Of a stretch of DNA of 64,000 nt, positions 5,731-61,627 are shown piece by piece. Location of the stretch: contig CAVRUJ010000001.1 in assembly GCA_963724385.1 (NCBI GenBank), positions 1,154,896-1,218,895 of the forward strand, in the 5' to 3' direction. Below the pieces are notes generated by a model. The model had not been told where the DNA came from and did no database searches. It saw nothing but the letters and a program-made list of their open reading frames with translations. The position numbers were made by a program, and so were the translations under genes. The stretch is from an uncultured Alphaproteobacteria bacterium (GTDB lineage Bacteria; Pseudomonadota; Alphaproteobacteria; Dongiales; Dongiaceae). Each line of letters opens with the position of its first letter. Positions within the stretch are counted from its first letter, which is position 1.

Positions 5731-6516
5731 CTAGCTCCGTTTGCCGGGGGCGGACTTGGCGGCAATGACCGTCTCGATCAGAGCGTGCGAATGGATGCCG
5801 AGCAGGCCGCCATCGACGGCAATGGCCTGGCCTGTGATGTAGCGGCAATCGTCCGCGGCCAGGAAATGGATGAGGGCGGCAACTTCTTCGGGCATACCCA
5901 CCCTGCCGGCCGCCGCGGCAGTCTCGATGAGGGCGATTTCCACCTCGGCATTCTCCTGCTGGCGCAGCATGGGGGTGTCGATGGAGCCGGGACAGACGCA
6001 ATTGACCCGGATGCCCCGGCCGGCGAGCTCCACGGCCGCGGTCTGGGTGAGGCTGACCACCGCAGCCTTGGAGGCCGAATAGGCAGCATAGCTGCCGACC
6101 CCGAGCATGGCGGCGACCGAGGCGACGTTAATAATGCTGCCGCCCTCCATGTGGGGTGCCACATGGCGCATCGTGGCCCAGACGCCCATGGTGTTGACCT
6201 CGAAATGACGCCGCATGGCGGCGGCGCTGAGCTCGGTGATGGCCACCTGATCCGAGATCACGCCGGCGGAATTCACCAAGATATCGATCCGGCCATGGCG
6301 CCTGGCCACCTCGGCGATCAGCGAGATCACCTGGCTTTCTTGGGCTACGTCCACCGGCAGGTATTCGCCACCAAAAGCGGCCGCCGTGGGCCCTGCGTCG
6401 GACCGGTTGGCGATGACCACCTTGGCTCCGGCGGCGGCAAACCGGCGGGCGGTCGCAAGCCCGATCCCGGAACCGCCGCCCGTGACGAGCGCAATCTTGC
6501 CGTCAAGCCGGAACAT
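5731..6516 (-). CDS. SDR-family short-chain dehydrogenase/reductase
   Basis: ORF trimmed to Met13 (ATG 6516, GGGAGG upstream). It has the TGGGSGIG cofactor motif, NSAG and YAASKAAV (YxxxK). Confidence 0.85.
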   Translation of the reverse strand: MFRLDGKIALVTGGGSGIGLATARRFAAAGAKVVIANRSDAGPTAAAFGGEYLPVDVAQESQVISLIAEVARRHGRIDILVNSAGVISDQVAITELSAAAMRRHFEVNTMGVWATMRHVAPHMEGGSIINVASVAAMLGVGSYAAYSASKAAVVSLTQTAAVELAGRGIRVNCVCPGSIDTPMLRQQENAEVEIALIETAAAAGRVGMPEEVAALIHFLAADDCRYITGQAIAVDGGLLGIHSHALIETVIAAKSAPGKRS

Positions 6517-7665: not shown

Positions 7666-9132
7666 TCAAGCTTGAGGGGGCGGCGATTTCGCGGGGTGGT
7701 AGCGCTTCACCCGGATATTGCTGATCGCGGCCTCGACCAGACGCTGCTCGAAATGAGGCTTTATGCCCTCGAACTCGCAGGTCGCGACGACCTGTTCGAT
7801 GATGAATCCGGGTTGGTAGGCCGCGAGCTCGATGCCCCGCTTCTCGGTCAGCTCCTGGATGATGAACTCGAGCATCTCTTCGCTGAGGGGAATATCCTTG
7901 GACTTGGCGACGTAATCGAAAATCCGCTTGAACCGCTTGCGCGAAGGCGGGGCGATCTCGAGCTTGAACGGCAGGCGGCGAAGGAAGGCCGGATCCATGA
8001 GATCTTCGGGCTCGAGATTGGTCGAAAACATCAGCCGCGCCTCGAACGGCAAGTCGAAGCTCTTGCCGGTCTGCAGCTTCAGATAGTCGACGCCGTTCTC
8101 CAAAGGCACGATCCAGCGATTCAGCAGGTCGGACGGCGACACGAGCTGGCGGCCGAAATCGTCGATGAGGATTGACCCGCCGAGCGCCTTCACGTGCAGG
8201 GGCGCCTCGTAGCATTTCGAAATGGGATCGTAGCCGAGCTCGAGCATCTCCAGCGTCAGCTCGCCGCCGGCCACTGCGAATGGCTGGCGGCAGGGAACCC
8301 ATCGTCCGTCGAATTCCTCGTCCCGGATGGCCCTCACGGAGGTATCTCGCTGCTCGTCCTCGTCGAGGAGGGCCGAGTGCAGCTTCGGATCGAACACGCG
8401 CATGATCTGCCCTTCGATCATGACCGAATAGGGGACGTAGATGAGGTCGGTCAGGGTTCGGCCGAGCCGAAGAGCGATCGACGTCTTGCCATTGCCCGGC
8501 GGCCCGTAGAACAGGATGGGTTTGCCCGAGTTGATTGCCGGGCCCATCTTCTGCATGAGCGACTCCTCGAGGAACAGCCCCGAGAGAGCCGCCTTGATTT
8601 CGGGCAAGGTCACCCGCTCGCCGGAGATCCGCTGACTGACGATCCGCTTCTTGAAGGCGTCCAAGGACACGGGCGCGGGGCCGATATACTGGGAGCGCGA
8701 CATTGCGCCGGCCGCCCATTGGCGGCCCGCCTCGGTGATGTCGTAGCGCTTTTCGGCGAGCATGCCCGAGCCGCGCGCGCTGCTGACATTGAGGAGCTGG
8801 CGGCTGGCGGCGAGTTCTCCCAACTGTGCGGCCAGCGGGTGGGGCAGTTTCAGGCCCTCGACGAATTGCGACGTCGTGTCGAGCCCGTTGACGAAGATGA
8901 GCTTCATCAGAAGGTCGAGCAGGTCGTTCTCTTTTATATGGAGCTCGGCGATGCTGGTCGGCTTGGCCGGGGAGATCTTCAGCAAGCGCTCGAGCCGCTT
9001 GCGGTCGACGATCCCCATCGCGATCAAGTTCTCGCCGAGCCGCCCGCCTTCGGTGAACTGCCGCTGCAAGGCGGCTTCGATGTCCTGGGGCGTTGCCAGC
9101 TCCGCCCTGATCAGAAGTTCACCGATCCTCAT
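7666..9132 (-). CDS. AAA+ ATPase with an N-terminal MshEN-like tandem motif and a probable winged-helix segment
   Basis: ATG at 9132 with AAGGTGAAGG upstream. Residues 2-54 match two 24-residue MshEN-type repeats. Walker A is GPPGNGKTS, Walker B ILIDDFGRQ, sensor STN, plus FLRR. It is about 50-60 % identical by eye to the 13277..14785 product. Confidence 0.85.
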   Translation of the reverse strand: MRIGELLIRAELATPQDIEAALQRQFTEGGRLGENLIAMGIVDRKRLERLLKISPAKPTSIAELHIKENDLLDLLMKLIFVNGLDTTSQFVEGLKLPHPLAAQLGELAASRQLLNVSSARGSGMLAEKRYDITEAGRQWAAGAMSRSQYIGPAPVSLDAFKKRIVSQRISGERVTLPEIKAALSGLFLEESLMQKMGPAINSGKPILFYGPPGNGKTSIALRLGRTLTDLIYVPYSVMIEGQIMRVFDPKLHSALLDEDEQRDTSVRAIRDEEFDGRWVPCRQPFAVAGGELTLEMLELGYDPISKCYEAPLHVKALGGSILIDDFGRQLVSPSDLLNRWIVPLENGVDYLKLQTGKSFDLPFEARLMFSTNLEPEDLMDPAFLRRLPFKLEIAPPSRKRFKRIFDYVAKSKDIPLSEEMLEFIIQELTEKRGIELAAYQPGFIIEQVVATCEFEGIKPHFEQRLVEAAISNIRVKRYHPAKSPPPQA

Positions 9133-46184: not shown

Positions 46185-46522
46185 CACCGGCGGGACCTCC
46201 GGCGGCGGAGTACTGGCGATTTGTCGGCGAACGCTTCCGCAAGAGGCTTTAACTGGAGCCCGGTAAGCCGCTCGAAGGTTCTCTCGCCATAACGGTGAAG
46301 GCGCTGGTGGTGGCGCCAGCAGAGGGAGACCGTCCAGTTGTCCCCTGGCTTCATGCCCATGCCGCCATCAGTCCCGATCCTTACGTGGGCCGCTTCGATC
46401 TCACGCTCGAAACAATTGGCGACAGAACAGGCGTGGGACCGGACCCAATCGAGATGGGCAGGTGAGCGTAGCGGGCCGCGTTCTCGAATCGGCGGGAAAC
46501 GCAGGAGGGCCGGCAAGCTCAC
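46184..46522 (-). CDS. HNH/DUF968-like putative nuclease
   Basis: GTG start in a GTGA overlap. It has AHLDWVRSHACSV...EAAHVRIGTDGGMGMKPGDNWTVSLCWRHHQRLH. Confidence 0.5.
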   Translation of the reverse strand: MSLPALLRFPPIRERGPLRSPAHLDWVRSHACSVANCFEREIEAAHVRIGTDGGMGMKPGDNWTVSLCWRHHQRLHRYGERTFERLTGLQLKPLAEAFADKSPVLRRRRSRR

Positions 46523-46872
46523 GCCCCGGACCTCCGCTCGGCCTCGCAGAGGGCTTGATAGTCAGCCTCCTCGTTGAGGTGAGCGTCGTAGGCCTTGAGC
46601 AACTCGGCCGGGCAGGCCTTCCGGTCCACGACGGCAATCACTCGCCTGCCGCTGCATTCCGGGCACGCCCGGTCGTAGACGCCGCTGAGGTAATCCTCCA
46701 GGAACTCCGGACCCTCCTCGTCCATCTCCTCGCGGGTGAAGGCGCCGAGATGGGCGCTCGACGTGCCCCGGCCTTCAAAGTGACCGCACACCTCGAATTT
46801 CGCCGGGAGCGCTACGTCTTCCTCGCTCCCATCATCGTGATAGCGAGTCCAGGTGATCGTTGTGGAGGGCAT
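46519..46872 (-). CDS. phage hypothetical protein with a CxxC pair; first gene of the leftward early operon
   Basis: ATG at 46872 with GGAG 6 nt upstream (the track start at 46878 is TTG). It contains ...ACPECSGRRVIAVVD... Confidence 0.5.
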   Translation of the reverse strand: MPSTTITWTRYHDDGSEEDVALPAKFEVCGHFEGRGTSSAHLGAFTREEMDEEGPEFLEDYLSGVYDRACPECSGRRVIAVVDRKACPAELLKAYDAHLNEEADYQALCEAERRSGA

Positions 46873-46902
46873 GGGCAACTCCGTCGGTGACTGGCAAAAC
46901 CG

Positions 46903-46954
46903 ACGGTAGCCAATATGGCAACCTACGTCAACAGGTCTGTTGCCGATTAGTCAA
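46903..46954 (-). promoter_or_regulatory. candidate PL promoter with operator sites
   Basis: The minus strand reads TTGACG-N17-TACCGT. The spacer contains TTGCCATATTGGCTA, and a second site, TTGCCGATTAGTCAA, lies at 46940-46954. The module is 24/29 identical to PR at 48131-48159. Confidence 0.55.
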
Positions 46955-46968
46955 CAAACCGATGCCAA

Positions 46969-47346
46969 CTAGGGGCCTCGCGGCGCGATATCGTCCATCA
47001 TGATGTAGAAACTGTCGACTGAACCATCTTGGAGCATGATCTCACCGCGAGCTTCGTCAACCGCCCCCGCTGGGAGAGCCACCCTAATAGTGGACGTAAT
47101 CGTGAAGCCCACATTGGGCGGAAGCGGCAGGCAGCGTCCTTGGGCGCTGAGCTGGTTGAAGAAATCCTGGCTGAAAGTCTCCGGATGCTTCACCGCGTCT
47201 TCCCACTCCGCCGTCGAGTTCGGATCGGCGCAAGTGACGACGGCATCGCCTTTGGAATGACGAAGAGCCTGCGCGTTCACATCACCCGCCGCCATGCCAA
47301 TCAATAGCGCCGCGAAAGCCGCGGCAGAGGGCAATGGGATGTGCAT
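46969..47346 (-). CDS. secreted small protein (candidate lysogenic-conversion moron)
   Basis: The signal peptide is MHIPLPSAAAFAALLIGMAAGDVNA. It lies directly downstream of, and co-oriented with, the repressor gene. Confidence 0.55.
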   Translation of the reverse strand: MHIPLPSAAAFAALLIGMAAGDVNAQALRHSKGDAVVTCADPNSTAEWEDAVKHPETFSQDFFNQLSAQGRCLPLPPNVGFTITSTIRVALPAGAVDEARGEIMLQDGSVDSFYIMMDDIAPRGP

Positions 47347-47360
47347 GACGCGGTGCCTTC

Positions 47361-48072
47361 CTAAGTGCCATCCATTCCGATCGGCTTGGAGAAGCTGACC
47401 ACGAGAGCTGCGATGACCAGGTCCTCGCCGTCGTCATCCGAGTTGCCATTGGGAACAGGCCACGGCTGCTGATACGCCGGATCAGTCGATTCGGGCCAGA
47501 GCCACGCTTGTCCCTCGACTACTTTGTATCGCTTGATTGTCGCTTCTGTAAGGCCGCTCCGATCGCGCCGATGAACCACGACATAGGCTCCGTTCTGGAT
47601 TTCGAGCGGCTGGCCCGTTTCTCTCAACCGTCGCGTCCCGAGCTCGACCACTCCGACGCAGATAACATAGGAGCCTTCGGGAAATGTTCTGTTCATCGAA
47701 TTGCCGACGACGCGGAGCGCGAAAGCCGGCATGCCGGCATAGGCCGTTCCGATCACCGCCGAGATCTCGTACTGATCACTCGGTGACCATTCTAGAGCTT
47801 CCCGCCATTGGCCGGCCTGCACCGCGCCGACGACCTTGATCGACCTCGGCCGTGCGGATCGCGCCGATTCGTCGGTTGTCGGCGGCCGATGGAAGAGATC
47901 TTCCGGGCGAATTGACAGAGCAGACGCAGAGTCGGGCCATCCACTTGGTGGTGAGGCCGCGATCCGAACGTTCAAGCTTCGATATCTGGGTCTTATCAGT
48001 ACCGACGGCTTCGCCGAGTTCCTGCAGCGTCAAGCCGCGATGCTCACGCCATTCCCTGAGGAAATGATCCAT
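47361..48072 (-). pseudogene. CI/LexA-like repressor (XRE HTH plus S24 peptidase domain) with one frameshift
   Basis: The HTH (LTLQELGEAVGTDKTQISKLERSDRGLT) is in ORF 47776..48168 from the ATG at 48072. ALSIRPEDLF and the S24 part (ALRVVGNSMNRTFPEGSYV) are in ORF 47361..47975. The junction is about 47930-47945. Confidence 0.75.
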
Positions 48073-48081
48073 GCCGCCACG

Positions 48082-48159
48082 TTGCCGGAATGGCAACGTC
48101 GGGTCAGTCGCCAATGCGGCAACTAGATGATTGACGATAGTTGCCGTATTGGCTACCTT
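48082..48159 (+). promoter_or_regulatory. OR-like operator cluster and candidate PR promoter
   Basis: Three sites: TTGCCGGAATGGCAA (48082-96), TCGCCAATGCGGCAA (48108-22) and TTGCCGTATTGGCTA (48141-55). The promoter is TTGACG (48131-36), N17, TACCTT (48154-59). Confidence 0.55.
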
Positions 48160-48166
48160 ATGCAAC

Positions 48167-48403
48167 ATGGTTCTGGCGGACTATCTAAAGACTGAGCATC
48201 TGAGTGCTGCCGAATTCGCGCGCTCGCTGGGCGTCAGCCGCTCGATCGTGCTCCGCTGGGCGAAGAGGGAACGCACACCTCGCGGCGCCCAAATCAAGCG
48301 CATCACTTCCCTGACGGGCGGCCGAGTTACCGCCGCCGACTTCTTCGATGAGCCCGCAGCGAGGCCGCCGCATGATCCGCTGGCTCCGCTCATTGCTTCG
48401 TAA
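48167..48403 (+). CDS. Cro/YdaS-like HTH protein
   Basis: ATG at 48167 (the track start at 48131 is the TTG of the -35 box). It has LSAAEFARSLGVSRSIVLRWAK. It is divergent from the repressor. Confidence 0.65.
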   Translation: MVLADYLKTEHLSAAEFARSLGVSRSIVLRWAKRERTPRGAQIKRITSLTGGRVTAADFFDEPAARPPHDPLAPLIAS

Positions 48404-48466
48404 GGCCTCGGGTATCGATGCCCTCGAACGGCGCCTGGCGCTGATCGCGATGGAGGCGCGCCGGCA

Positions 48467-48694
48467 ATGACGGAGCAGCTCCGCGCCGATGAGGTTGTCC
48501 AGGTCGGCCGCCGGCGGGGCAGGGTGGTCTCCTATCGCGTAACAGATCGCGGCCAACTCTGCCGCATTCAATTCGACACCGACGGCGATCCACGGCCGAG
48601 CGACTACCCGCCCGGCGGTGAATACGTCGAGCTCTTCGCTTCATCCCCCAAAATCTCCCGCGCCGCGCCTGTCCCTGAAGGGAATGTGGCATGA
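48467..48694 (+). CDS. phage hypothetical protein (75 aa)
   Basis: Open frame with an ATG start. No motif recognised. Confidence 0.3.
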   Translation: MTEQLRADEVVQVGRRRGRVVSYRVTDRGQLCRIQFDTDGDPRPSDYPPGGEYVELFASSPKISRAAPVPEGNVA

Positions 48695-49097
48695 GCGCCC
48701 TGGCCTATCTCCGGACTCCTGGGCGGAACAGCTCGGGTTCGGCTGGCCGGAGGAAATCGTCCCGGCGGGACGAAAATCCCCGTCCGCCCGCGACGAAGAT
48801 GGACACCAACGACCTGACCAAGGCGCTCTACCTCGCGCTGCATCGCGCCTTCGACGGGCCGATGCGCCGATCAAGCGCATCGCCCGCATCGCCAACAGCA
48901 ACGAGCGCGCCGCCAAGGACTGGTGGGGCGGCAAGAACCTGCCCAATGCCGTGCACCTGCTGAAACTCATGGCCCAGGTGCCAGAGTTCGCCGGCGAGGT
49001 CCGCCGCCTGACCGGCATGGAAGCCGACCTCGAGCCGGAATTCGCCGCCGCCTTCAACGAGGCGATGCGGGCGTTCTCCAAGCTGAAGGGCCGCTGA
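48684..49097 (+). pseudogene. phage hypothetical protein; reading frame ambiguous in the middle
   Basis: The C-terminal part, PIKRIARIANSNERAAKDWWGGKNLPNAVHLLKLMAQVPEFAGEVRRL, is clear. Between about 48790 and 48860 a second frame (MDTNDLTKALYLALHRAFDGP) looks more protein-like. Confidence 0.35.
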
Positions 49098-59686: not shown

Positions 59687-59950
59687 ATGTATAACCCATC
59701 GACCAGCATCTTCGCCGGAATGTCGACCCAGGCGCTGCAGACCGCGTTGGCGCAGGCGCAGCAGGCCTATATCGATCTTTCGACGGGCGCGAAGGGTGAA
59801 TCGTACAGCTACACCCAAGGCCAGGGCAGCAAGGCCATCACCTATACCCGCGCCAACCTCGGCGCGCTGACCGGGCTGATCAAGCAGCTCCAGGCTCAGC
59901 TCGGCATTGTGCGGCATCCCCGCCACGCTCTCTCGATCGGGTTCCGCTGA
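59687..59950 (+). CDS. gpW-family head-tail joining protein
   Basis: ATG at 59687 with GAGG upstream. MSTQALQTALAQAQQAYIDLSTGAKGESYSYTQGQGSKAITYTRANLGALTGLIKQLQAQLG is typical gpW. Confidence 0.7.
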   Translation: MYNPSTSIFAGMSTQALQTALAQAQQAYIDLSTGAKGESYSYTQGQGSKAITYTRANLGALTGLIKQLQAQLGIVRHPRHALSIGFR

Positions 59951-61627
59951 TGGCTGCCCCGTTTGCCCCGCGCAAGCAGGTGCAGATCCTCGGCGCCGAT
60001 GGCCATCCGCTGCCGCCCCGGCATCCTGGTGCCGCTGGGCGCAAGCTAGCTCTCGCCGGCGGCGCGGGTCATGGTCGGGCGTGCCCTATGACGCCGCCGA
60101 CGTCTGGTCGGATCACATGTCGGCGTGGATGCCGATGCTGTGGTCGGCCGACAACGTCCTCAACCCCTATCGCGACCGGATCGTCGCCCGGACGCGCGAT
60201 GCGGTGCGCAACGACGGTTGGGCGAGGGTGCCGTCACGCGCGTGCTCGACAACGCGATGGCGAATTTCCGGCCGCTCGCAAGCCCGACTATCGTGCGCTG
60301 GCGTCTATAGCGGGATTCAGACGTTCGACGCGGTCTGGGCCGACGAATATGGCCGCGCGCTCAAGGCATGCTGGCGGACCTGGGCCAACGATCCGGGACG
60401 CTGGTGTGACGCCAGCGCGCCATGACTGTCTCGCAGATGTCGTCTGCATTCCGTCACTATCTGGTCGACGGCGAAGGGCTGGGTATCCTCTCTTGGCTGC
60501 GAGAGGGTCGGACAGGTGCTGCTTGGTATGCCACCGCGCTCCAGGTAGTTGATCCGGACCGGCTCGCAATCCCCAGCTCGTGTTCGACGATCGGACCTGC
60601 GCGGCGGGTCGAGGTCGATCGCTTCGGCGCCGCGATGAGCTACTGGATCCGCGCCGCGCTCAGGGCGACTGGTGGGCGGCAGCGGATGCGTGCATTGGGA
60701 GAGGATCCCGCGCGAGACCGCCTGGGGCCGTCCTATCGTGGTGCATGACTTCGATCGCGAGCGGGCCGGCCAGCACCGCAGCAGCGCCGGGACGCTGGCG
60801 CCCGTGCTGAAGCGGCTGAAAATGCTGATTCGGTACGATAGCGCGGAACTCGACGCCGCGATCATCAACGCGATGTTCGGCGCCTACGTCGAGAGCCCGT
60901 TCGATCCGGAAAAGGTGGAGGAGGCGCTGACCAGGCGCAGACGACAATGCTCGGCAGCACCAGAAGCATCGCTCTGACTCGCACAGGGACCGCGACCGGA
61001 TGCTCGGCGGGGCGCGGCTCCCGCTGTTCTACCCCGGCGAGGCGATCAGGGCCGTCACGGCCGAGCAGCCGACCGGACGATTCAGGGGTTCGAGAAGGCG
61101 ATGCTGCACAACGTCTCGGCCGGGCCGGAACGTCGGCGCAGCAGGTCCCGAACGACGGGGCGGACATGGACTACTGCTCGGCCCGAGGCGCGCTGCTGGA
61201 GGTCCTGAAGACGATGGGCCGGCGTCGCGAGGATTTTGCGCCGGGCTTCGGCCAGCCGATCTACGCCGCGTTCGTCGAGGAGTGCATCGAGCTGGACGAA
61301 CTGCCGATGCCGGCGGGCACACCAGATTTCTCGGCGTTCCGCACGGCCTACGGCGATGCTCACTCGATCGGCCCTGGGAAGGGCTGGATGGATTCGGTCG
61401 GCCGAACCCGACGGCGCGATCCTTCGGATGGACGCCGGTCCTGTCGACGCTCGACGAGGAATGCTGCCGACCAGGGGCTGAACCGGAAGCCTGCCTGGAT
61501 CATCGCCGCGATGGAAATCCAGATCTTCAAGGATCGCGGCATCCCAGGGCTCGACCTCGGCCGAGCATGCAAACCCGAGCCGCCTGCATCGCCCCAGTCG
61601 CAGAAGAGTCAATCTCTCCCGGCGTGA
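59950..61627 (+). pseudogene. portal protein, lambda family, frameshifted at least 5 times
   Basis: The ATG at 59950 sits in a TGATG overlap. YDAADVWSDHMSAWMPMLWSADNVLNPYRDRIVARTRDAVRNDGWA and further pieces are scattered over ORFs 59907-60425, 59950-60552, 60422-60748, 60672-60977 and 60947-61627. Confidence 0.7.

What the first reader, a model, noticed from the sequence alone, without database searches (positions are those of the whole stretch)
46903..46931. PL and PR are near-duplicate 29-bp promoter/operator modules
The minus strand at 46931..46903 reads TTGACG TAGGTTGCCATATTGGC TACCGT. The plus strand at 48131..48159 reads TTGACG ATAGTTGCCGTATTGGC TACCTT. They match at 24 of 29 positions, have an identical -35, a 17-nt spacer, and an embedded TTGCC(A/G)TATTGGCTA site that overlaps the -10. 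One faces the leftward early operon (first gene ATG 46872). The other faces the cro-like gene. This is the lambda OL/PL - OR/PR logic, with one repressor site architecture reused at both early promoters.
Basis: seen in the sequence. Interest (0 to 1): 0.6.

Follow-up and report, generated by a model that had tools for sequence, protein, structure and literature searches.

The report
Prophage early promoters share one operator module
The two outward-facing early promoters of a prophage in an alphaproteobacterium are built from the same repressor-site/promoter layout, as in phage lambda; this is an ordinary lysis-lysogeny switch, and in this copy the repressor gene is broken by a frameshift.

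Summary
Minus 46931..46903 and plus 48131..48159 match at 24 of 29 positions; 0 of 2000 shuffles reached 24.

The shared unit is longer than reported. It is a 53-bp module: operator O2, 7 nt, TTGACG, 3 nt, then operator O1 overlapping the -10. Operators are 17-bp GTTGCC-N5-GGCAAC dyads, and O1 and O2 lie 33 bp apart at both promoters.

Identity sits in the -35 and the operators. The linkers match at only 1 of 10 positions. This points to shared function, not recent duplication.

Five such dyads lie in 1.25 kb, three at OR and two at OL. The whole 5.03-Mb genome has only 29.

They flank a CI-like repressor gene (HTH plus S24 peptidase) and a divergent Cro-like gene. The same layout occurs beside homologous repressors in four other phage lineages.

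New points are a cro with no room for a leader and a candidate lambda-like PRM. The repressor carries one extra base, and the portal gene is split over three frames, so this copy may be defective.

No transcript or binding data could be obtained. Verdict: a new member of the lambda-type immunity region, of low to moderate interest.

The parts
46903..46955 (-). PL module: OL2 (46955..46939), 7-nt linker, -35 TTGACG (46931..46926), 3 nt, OL1 (46922..46906), -10 TACCGT (46908..46903). Predicted start is near 46896, giving a leader of about 24 nt.
48107..48159 (+). PR module: OR2 (48107-48123), 7-nt linker, -35 TTGACG (48131-48136), 3 nt, OR1 (48140-48156), -10 TACCTT (48154-48159). Predicted start is at about 48166-48167, which is the cro ATG.
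48081..48097 (.). OR3, the only perfect dyad (GTTGCCGGAATGGCAAC). It ends 8 nt upstream of the repressor ATG and lies 26 bp from OR2.
48079..48107 (-). Candidate PRM (inferred): -35 CTGACC (48107..48102) abutting OR2, 17-nt spacer, -10 CAACGT (48084..48079) inside OR3, then 6 nt to the ATG at 48072. OR2 would be centred at -43.
   Evidence: L020 has CTGACG-17-CAAAAT at the matching position
47776..48072 (-). Repressor gene, first frame. It encodes the XRE-type HTH domain (MDHFLREWREHRGLT...KWMARL) and then an out-of-frame tail.
47361..47933 (-). Repressor gene, second frame. It encodes the linker and the S24 peptidase domain, with Ala86-Gly87, Ser125 and Lys180 conserved (read-through numbering). 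From ATG to stop is 712 nt, one base too many. The frames meet near 47925-47935.
48167..48403 (+). Cro-like HTH gene (78 aa). It has no Shine-Dalgarno sequence, and its start codon lies 7 nt after the -10.
46969..47346 (-). 125-aa ORF between the repressor gene and PL, in the position of lambda rexAB. It matches no family.
46519..46872 (-). First gene of the leftward operon (117 aa, no family). A GGAG sequence lies 6 nt before its ATG.

Best explanation
These are the OL/PL and OR/PR control regions of a lambda-type prophage immunity region in an alphaproteobacterium.

Each early promoter is built as O2, 7 nt, TTGACG, 3 nt, O1. O1 (GTTGCC-N5-GGCTAC) covers the spacer and supplies the 'TA' of the -10 (TACCKT). 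O2 lies 33 bp away, about three helical turns, on the same face of the helix.

Dimers of the CI-like repressor would bind O1 and O2, probably cooperatively, and shut RNA polymerase out of both promoters. RecA-stimulated self-cleavage at Ala86-Gly87 would lift repression.

A third, perfect dyad (OR3) sits over the repressor gene's own candidate promoter, which would allow autoregulation. The Cro-like protein would act on the same sites during lytic growth.

cro, and probably the repressor gene, are read from mRNAs with no leader.

What is shown:
- the repeats and their significance;
- their uniqueness in the genome;
- the gene context;
- the conserved layout in other phages;
- the conserved peptidase residues;
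- the frameshift.

What is inferred: promoter activity, which protein binds, cooperativity, PRM and leaderless starts.

In this assembly the repressor gene has one extra base, so the full-length protein cannot be made. If that is real, the modules are intact relics of a switch that no longer holds.
For: - Sequence and statistics.
- Five dyads lie in 1.25 kb, against 29 in 5.03 Mb.
- Identity is confined to functional elements: -35 6/6, O1 16/17, the O2 half-site next to the -35 6/6, linkers 1/10.
- Both O1 sites share the GGCAAC-to-GGCTAC departure, which creates GCTA/TAC at the -10.
- The host is an alphaproteobacterium (alpha_tmRNA, 258 bits). The Caulobacter RpoD consensus is TTGaCgS / GCtANAWC (PMC8144410).
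- The proposed promoters are the best -35/-10 pairs in each intergenic region.
- Genes: HTH plus Peptidase_S24 and a phrog_35 Cro-like protein. The repressor is 26-33% identical to annotated CI repressors of cultured phages.
- The cleavage site and the Ser/Lys pair are invariant in the alignment.
- The same O2-linker-TTGACR-linker-O1 layout, with 32-33 bp spacing, occurs in L020 (at both PL and PR), L257, L266 and L258. Each sits beside an XRE-HTH repressor 33-48% identical in the DNA-binding domain.
- Cro N-termini align from residue 1 in six loci. In the window and in three further distinct loci a -10-like hexamer ends 6-7 nt before the start, and the window's cro has no Shine-Dalgarno sequence.
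Against: - There is no experimental or transcript evidence.
- The -10 hexamers match TATAAT at only 3 of 6 positions, and the generic promoter scan found nothing.
- L257, L258, L266 and L020-PR were found with a pattern that already required most of the layout. Only their gene context, the O2 left halves and the extra nearby sites are independent evidence.
- The closest full-length repressor homologues are only 43% identical, so site-by-site conservation cannot be tested.
- The repressor reading frame is broken, and no second copy exists in the genome.
- The portal gene is split over three frames. The prophage may be dead, or the assembly may be poor here.
Confidence: 0.78

Rival explanations
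1. The modules are fossils. The prophage is defective, no functional repressor is made, and PL/PR are either constitutively open or silent. The likeness records past function only.
For: - The repressor gene is 712 nt from ATG to stop and changes frame at WMARL|ASALSIRPEDLF. Intact relatives read straight through this point.
- The lambda-family portal gene is split over three frames.
- The coding frame switches about 4.5 times per kb across 48-64 kb, against a genome mean of 2.05.
- There is no paralogous repressor in the genome.
Against: - Both modules, all five dyads and their 33-bp spacing are undamaged.
- The left arm, cro and the ORF behind the repressor gene are open.
- The frameshifts could be local assembly errors, and reads could not be inspected.
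- The frame-switch measure is noisy; other genome blocks score as high.
Confidence: 0.5
2. The dyads are mainly targets of another protein, either the Cro-like protein or a host regulator, and not of the CI-like repressor.
For: - Cro proteins normally share operators with CI.
- No binding data exist.
- The genome has 24 further sites with at most 1 mismatch elsewhere.
Against: - The count elsewhere in the genome (24) is close to the backwards-read control of 21, so there is no host regulon signal.
- The dyad type travels with homologous repressor HTH domains in L020, L257 and L258, where the C-terminal domains and partner genes differ.
Confidence: 0.1
3. The PL-PR likeness is a recent DNA duplication, or chance, with no regulatory meaning.
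For: The pair is an inverted repeat 1.2 kb apart.
Against: - 0 of 2000 shuffles reached the observed match.
- The linkers between elements match at 1 of 10 positions, while the elements match at 28 of 29.
- The same layout, with unrelated linker sequence, occurs in other phages.
Confidence: 0.03

Closest known systems
Phage lambda immunity region (OL1-3/PL, OR1-3/PR/PRM, cI, cro, rexAB)
   Same: - Divergent cI (HTH plus S24 self-cleaving domain) and cro genes.
- 17-bp dyad operators repeated at both early promoters.
- Three sites at OR, with the middle one between the two -35 hexamers.
- A lysogen-expressed gene behind cI and ahead of PL.
- A candidate leaderless cI start with OR2 centred near -42/-43 (lambda details from my own knowledge).
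   Different: - The operator sequence is unrelated (GTTGCC-N5-GGCAAC).
- O1 and O2 are 33 bp apart, not 24.
- Only two clear OL sites are present.
- O2 flanks the -35 rather than overlapping it.
- cro also appears to be leaderless.
- The repressor is only distantly related (26-33% identity to annotated CI repressors).
- No N-like antiterminator was identified.
Phage 434 / P22 repressor-operator systems
   Same: Dyad half-sites are separated by a central stretch that is A/T-rich (19 of 25 spacer bases here, in a 66% G+C genome). In 434 this stretch is not contacted, yet it tunes affinity through DNA shape (own knowledge).
   Different: The half-site sequence and operator length differ. No structural or binding data exist for this system.
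Sinorhizobium phage 16-3 C repressor with OL/OR operators
   Same: It is a temperate alphaproteobacterial phage with a repressor that binds palindromic operators at two regions flanking the immunity genes (own knowledge).
   Different: The 16-3 operators are ACAA-N4/6-TTGT. Its repressor was not among the listed database hits (one search listed phiLM21 and Caulobacter phage DMCA instead).
Uncultivated phage contig IMGVR_UViG_3300042370_000005 (L020)
   Same: - It has the same module at both PL (5879..5830, minus) and PR (8130-8179), with 33-bp spacing.
- Its Cro is 41% identical, and its repressor HTH is 48% identical.
- Its cro start lies 6 nt after the -10.
- A -35-like CTGACG abuts O2 on the repressor side.
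   Different: - Its repressor lacks the S24 peptidase domain (about 130 aa).
- 2.3 kb of other genes lie between the repressor gene and PL.
- The PR -35 is shifted by 1 nt.

Membership tests
Lambda-type (CI/Cro) prophage immunity region | Divergently transcribed repressor and cro-like genes | tested here: met
   The repressor gene runs 48072..47361 (minus) and the cro-like gene 48167..48403 (plus), 94 bp apart.
Lambda-type (CI/Cro) prophage immunity region | Repressor with an N-terminal HTH and a C-terminal LexA-like S24 domain carrying an Ala-Gly cleavage site and a Ser/Lys dyad | tested here: inconclusive
   Both domains and all key residues are present (A86-G87, S125, K180). They lie in two reading frames separated by one extra base, so one intact polypeptide is not encoded as assembled.
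Lambda-type (CI/Cro) prophage immunity region | Repeated dyad operators at both a rightward and a leftward early promoter, overlapping the -35/-10 elements | tested here: met
   There are three dyads at OR and two at OL. O1 overlaps the spacer and the -10 at both promoters.
Lambda-type (CI/Cro) prophage immunity region | The repressor binds the operators and represses PL and PR; Cro binds the same sites | not testable with these tools
   This needs EMSA or footprinting and reporter assays.
Lambda-type (CI/Cro) prophage immunity region | A maintenance promoter (PRM) autoregulated through OR2/OR3 | tested here: inconclusive
   The only candidate is CTGACC-17-CAACGT, 6 nt from the ATG, with OR2 at -43 and OR3 over the -10. 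A matching -35 is found in L020. No transcript data are available.
Sigma-70 (RpoD) promoters of Alphaproteobacteria | -35 TTGaCgS and -10 GCtANAWC at 10-14 nt (Caulobacter consensus, PMC8144410) | tested here: met
   PL reads TTGACGT-N14-GCTACCGT and PR reads TTGACGA-N14-GCTACCTT. The -35 core matches 6/6 and GCTA matches 4/4, while the downstream -10 positions fit poorly. The host is alphaproteobacterial. Activity was not tested.

The most novel reading that the evidence does not exclude
The 94-bp OR region may be a fully compacted switch in which both cro and the repressor gene are translated from leaderless mRNAs. OR2, centred at -43 of a weak PRM, would activate it as in lambda. The O2-7-TTGACR-3-O1 module would then be a conserved design of a widespread, unstudied group of temperate phages, apparently of Alphaproteobacteria (seen here in five lineages).
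Probability: 0.3. Interest if true: 0.4.

Novelty: new member of a known kind. Interest (0 to 1): 0.28.

Why it matters
The finding gives a sequence-level map of a lysis-lysogeny switch in an alphaproteobacterial prophage, where few such switches have been dissected. The map covers the operators, three promoters and the likely transcription starts.

The same promoter-operator layout recurs in other uncultivated phages. This gives a ready search pattern for their immunity regions, and a compact repressible promoter pair that could be tested as a genetic tool in Alphaproteobacteria.

It does not change any concept. It is the lambda paradigm with a different operator sequence.

Tried and rejected
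- DNA-level relatives: none were found in 60 related genomes or in INPHARED phages.
- A peptide-pattern scan of genome contigs with the S24 part found no relative.
- The loose pattern TTGACG-N3-GTTGCC-N5-GGC gave at least 114 viral and 120 genome hits. Nearly all were single chance matches. Only loci with extra nearby dyads were kept.
- Of 13 metagenome hits to the strict pattern, 12 look like chance or coding sequence.
- A second pair of dyads in the genome (C1:889596 and C1:890183) is not an immunity region.
- The generic sigma-70 scan found no promoter, because the -10 hexamers match only 3 of 6 positions.
- There is no terminator between the 125-aa ORF and PL (z = -0.39).
- GC3 ORF filtering and frame-switch counts are too noisy to separate real decay from assembly error.
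- Exact-sequence look-ups of three window proteins in other assemblies returned nothing.
- Literature searches for the operator motif and for leaderless cro in Alphaproteobacteria gave nothing relevant.

Full report
**1. The observation**

The + strand at 46903-46931 reads ACGGTAGCCAATATGGCAACCTACGTCAA. Its reverse complement is TTGACGTAGGTTGCCATATTGGCTACCGT. The + strand at 48131-48159 reads TTGACGATAGTTGCCGTATTGGCTACCTT. The two agree at 24 of 29 positions. The repeat finder lists the pair as the longest inverted repeat in 46400-48700 (I1, 27 nt, 85%).

I shuffled the two intergenic regions (46873-46968 and 48073-48166) 2000 times. The best 29-mer match averaged 15.5 (sd 1.05, maximum 21), and none reached 24.

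**2. What the repeat consists of**

The embedded site is one copy of a 17-bp dyad, GTTGCC-N5-GGCAAC. There are five copies:

| Site | Coordinates | Sequence (+ strand) |
|---|---|---|
| OL1 | 46906-46922 | GTAGCCAATATGGCAAC |
| OL2 | 46939-46955 | GTTGCCGATTAGTCAAC |
| OR3 | 48081-48097 | GTTGCCGGAATGGCAAC (perfect dyad) |
| OR2 | 48107-48123 | GTCGCCAATGCGGCAAC |
| OR1 | 48140-48156 | GTTGCCGTATTGGCTAC |

- The whole genome (5.03 Mb, two contigs) has 29 sites with at most 1 mismatch. The backwards-read control gives 21. Five of the 29 lie in this 1.25 kb.
- From those counts, about 0.007 sites are expected in a stretch of this size (my own arithmetic).
- The central five bases are A/T at 19 of 25 positions, in a genome of 66% G+C.

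Read in the direction of transcription, PL and PR line up over 53 nt:

- PL: GTTGACTAATCGGCAAC agacctg TTGACG tag GTTGCCATATTGGCTAC CGT
- PR: GTCGCCAATGCGGCAAC tagatga TTGACG ata GTTGCCGTATTGGCTAC CTT

In all, 36 of 53 positions match, against a shuffle mean of 23.1 and a maximum of 30. O1 and O2 are 33 bp apart at both promoters.

The identity is unevenly spread:

- -35 hexamer: 6/6
- O1: 16/17
- O2 half-site next to the -35: 6/6
- the two linkers: 1/10

The likeness is therefore best explained by shared function, not by a recent copy.

**3. Gene context**

- **Repressor.** Between the modules, on the minus strand, lies a CI-like repressor gene. It starts at the ATG at 48072 and stops at 47361. 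The first frame encodes an XRE-type HTH domain (Pfam HTH_31 and HTH_3). The second frame encodes a Peptidase_S24 domain (PHROG 4, 'transcriptional repressor').
- **The frameshift.** The gene is 712 nt long, one base more than a multiple of three. The frames change at ...KWMARL | ASALSIRPEDLF.... Relatives read straight through this point. These include the closest full-length ones (P0002 and P0003, 43% identical) and the L020 repressor (48% identical over the HTH domain).
- **Peptidase residues.** Ala86-Gly87, Ser125 and Lys180 (read-through numbering) are invariant in the alignment.
- **Paralogues and cultured relatives.** No paralogue exists in the genome. Cultured-phage relatives are 26-33% identical, and several are annotated as CI or prophage repressors.
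- **Cro.** A 78-aa Cro-like gene (phrog_35) starts at 48167 on the + strand.
- **Behind the repressor.** A 125-aa ORF with no family match (46969..47346) follows the repressor gene, in the position of lambda rexAB. PL then faces a 117-aa gene whose ATG at 46872 follows a GGAG sequence.
- **Host.** The host is an alphaproteobacterium: its genome carries a two-piece alpha_tmRNA (258 bits).

**4. Promoters**

- In each intergenic region the best -35/-10 pair is the proposed one. These are TTGACG-17-TACCGT (46931..46903) and TTGACG-17-TACCTT (48131..48159).
- The generic scan missed both because the -10 hexamers match TATAAT at only 3 of 6 positions. The matching positions are T-12, A-11 and T-7.
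- The modules fit the Caulobacter RpoD consensus (TTGaCgS and GCtANAWC; PMC8144410). They read TTGACG(T/A)-N14-GCTACC(G/T)T.
- Both O1 sites depart from the dyad consensus in the same way, GGCAAC to GGCTAC. That change is what creates GCTA/TAC at the -10. This looks like a compromise between operator and promoter.
- A host promoter of ordinary form, TGGACA-17-TATAAG, precedes tRNA-Phe in the window.

**5. Related phages**

No DNA-level relatives exist in the related genomes or the cultured phages searched. Pattern scans found four other phage lineages, on five contigs, with the same layout.

| Locus | Record | G+C | Module found |
|---|---|---|---|
| L020 | IMGVR_UViG_3300042370_000005 | 65% | At both PL (5879..5830, minus) and PR (8130-8179); both pairs 33 bp apart |
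| L257 | IMG/VR contig | 53% | Behind an HTH plus S24 repressor gene; 33-bp spacing |
| L266 | Metagenome contig, related to L257 | 53% | Same module as L257; 33-bp spacing; genes beside it not examined |
| L258 | IMG/VR contig | 67% | Behind a short HTH repressor gene; 32-bp spacing; further dyads in its divergent intergenic region |

- In L020 the two modules flank a repressor with a homologous HTH domain but no S24 domain. A Cro 41% identical to the one here lies beside it.
- The four repressor HTH domains examined are 33-48% identical to the one here.
- One caveat applies. The strict pattern already required the O2 right half, TTGAC, the O1 left half and GGC. Only the gene context, the O2 left halves, the extra nearby sites and L020-PL are independent evidence. 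L020-PL was found without any requirement for O2.
- All three viral hits to the strict pattern lie in immunity regions. Twelve of the 13 metagenome hits look like chance.

**6. Leaderless starts and a candidate PRM (inference)**

- The Cro N-terminus (M-x-L-x-D/x-Y-L) aligns from residue 1 in six loci.
- In this window and in three further distinct loci (L251, which is L020; L253, identical to L254 here; L255), a -10-like hexamer ends 6-7 nt before the start codon. The window's cro has no Shine-Dalgarno sequence. cro mRNA is therefore probably leaderless.
- The repressor gene also lacks a Shine-Dalgarno sequence.
- On its strand, CTGACC (48107..48102, abutting OR2) is followed after 17 nt by CAACGT (48084..48079, inside OR3). 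Six nt later comes the ATG.
- A start at the ATG would put OR2 at -43 and OR3 over the -10. That is the geometry of lambda PRM (own knowledge).
- L020 has CTGACG-17-CAAAAT at the corresponding place.
- This candidate is weak by consensus, and I give it about 0.35.

**7. State of this copy**

- The repressor frame is broken.
- The lambda-family portal gene matches Pfam PF05136 in three successive pieces, covering model positions 4-94, 102-171 and 183-258. The pieces lie in three different frames.
- The coding frame changes about 4.5 times per kb here, against a genome mean of 2.05. Other blocks of the genome score as high, so this measure is not decisive.
Exact-sequence look-ups in other assemblies returned nothing. 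Real decay and local assembly error therefore remain open.
- Both modules and all the spacings are intact either way.

**8. Mechanism proposed**

Repressor dimers bind O1 and O2 at both promoters. The sites are three helical turns apart, so they lie on one face of the helix and binding is probably cooperative. O1 spans -26 to -10 and O2 spans -59 to -43 relative to the PR start. Together they bracket the -35 and exclude RNA polymerase.

RecA-stimulated self-cleavage would release repression. Cro would then act at the same sites. OR3 would limit repressor synthesis.

All of these steps are inferred from the anatomy and from the lambda paradigm. None was measured.

**9. Comparison, novelty and verdict**

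This is the lambda OL/PL - OR/PR design with an unrelated operator sequence. It differs in its 33-bp site spacing, in an O2 that flanks rather than overlaps the -35, in having two rather than three clear OL sites, and in a likely leaderless cro.

It is a new member of a known kind. Interest is low to moderate (0.28).

Noticed in passing
window 59880-60974 (+): The lambda-family portal gene (PF05136) is split over three reading frames, covering model positions 4-94, 102-171 and 183-258. At least two frameshifts therefore fall within about 1 kb.
   Followed up: partly
window 46925-47010 (-) and 47326..47308 (-): No terminator lies between the 125-aa ORF and PL (z = -0.39). Transcription from the repressor operon could therefore read into the leftward operon. 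A terminator-like hairpin sits inside the 5' end of the 125-aa ORF, but the number of such hits equals the chance expectation.
   Followed up: partly
L020 7690-8106 (-) and 6021-7076 (+): The L020 repressor shares the HTH domain (48% identity) but has an unrelated short C-terminal part in place of the S24 peptidase. A LuxR-type-looking ORF (judged by eye, no family search) lies between the repressor gene and PL. The same operators are thus paired with a different, probably non-SOS, induction route.
   Followed up: no
L258 4085-4140: In this related contig the divergent intergenic region packs dyads 24 bp apart. TTGACG-N13-TATACT and a CAATAT hexamer lie 6 nt before the repressor ATG. This suggests a leaderless repressor gene there as well.
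   Followed up: no
L253/L254 upstream of the cro homologue: This cro homologue has TTGACA-17-TACGGT, then 6 nt, then GTG. The promoter geometry is the same, but the repeats are different (GGTGTCGCT). That looks like an immunity swap on a conserved promoter frame.
   Followed up: no
G000 C1:889596-889612 and C1:890183-890199 (L001): Two further dyad matches lie 587 bp apart elsewhere in the genome, one of them perfect (GTTGCCTCTTCGGCAAC). By eye, no immunity-type arrangement is apparent around them, and no repressor paralogue exists in the genome. They are probably chance matches or a hairpin.
   Followed up: partly
G000 C2:630-660 kb and C2:800-925 kb: These blocks have coding-frame switch rates as high as the prophage (4.7-5.6 per kb, against a mean of 2.05). 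They could be other degraded or atypical regions.
   Followed up: no
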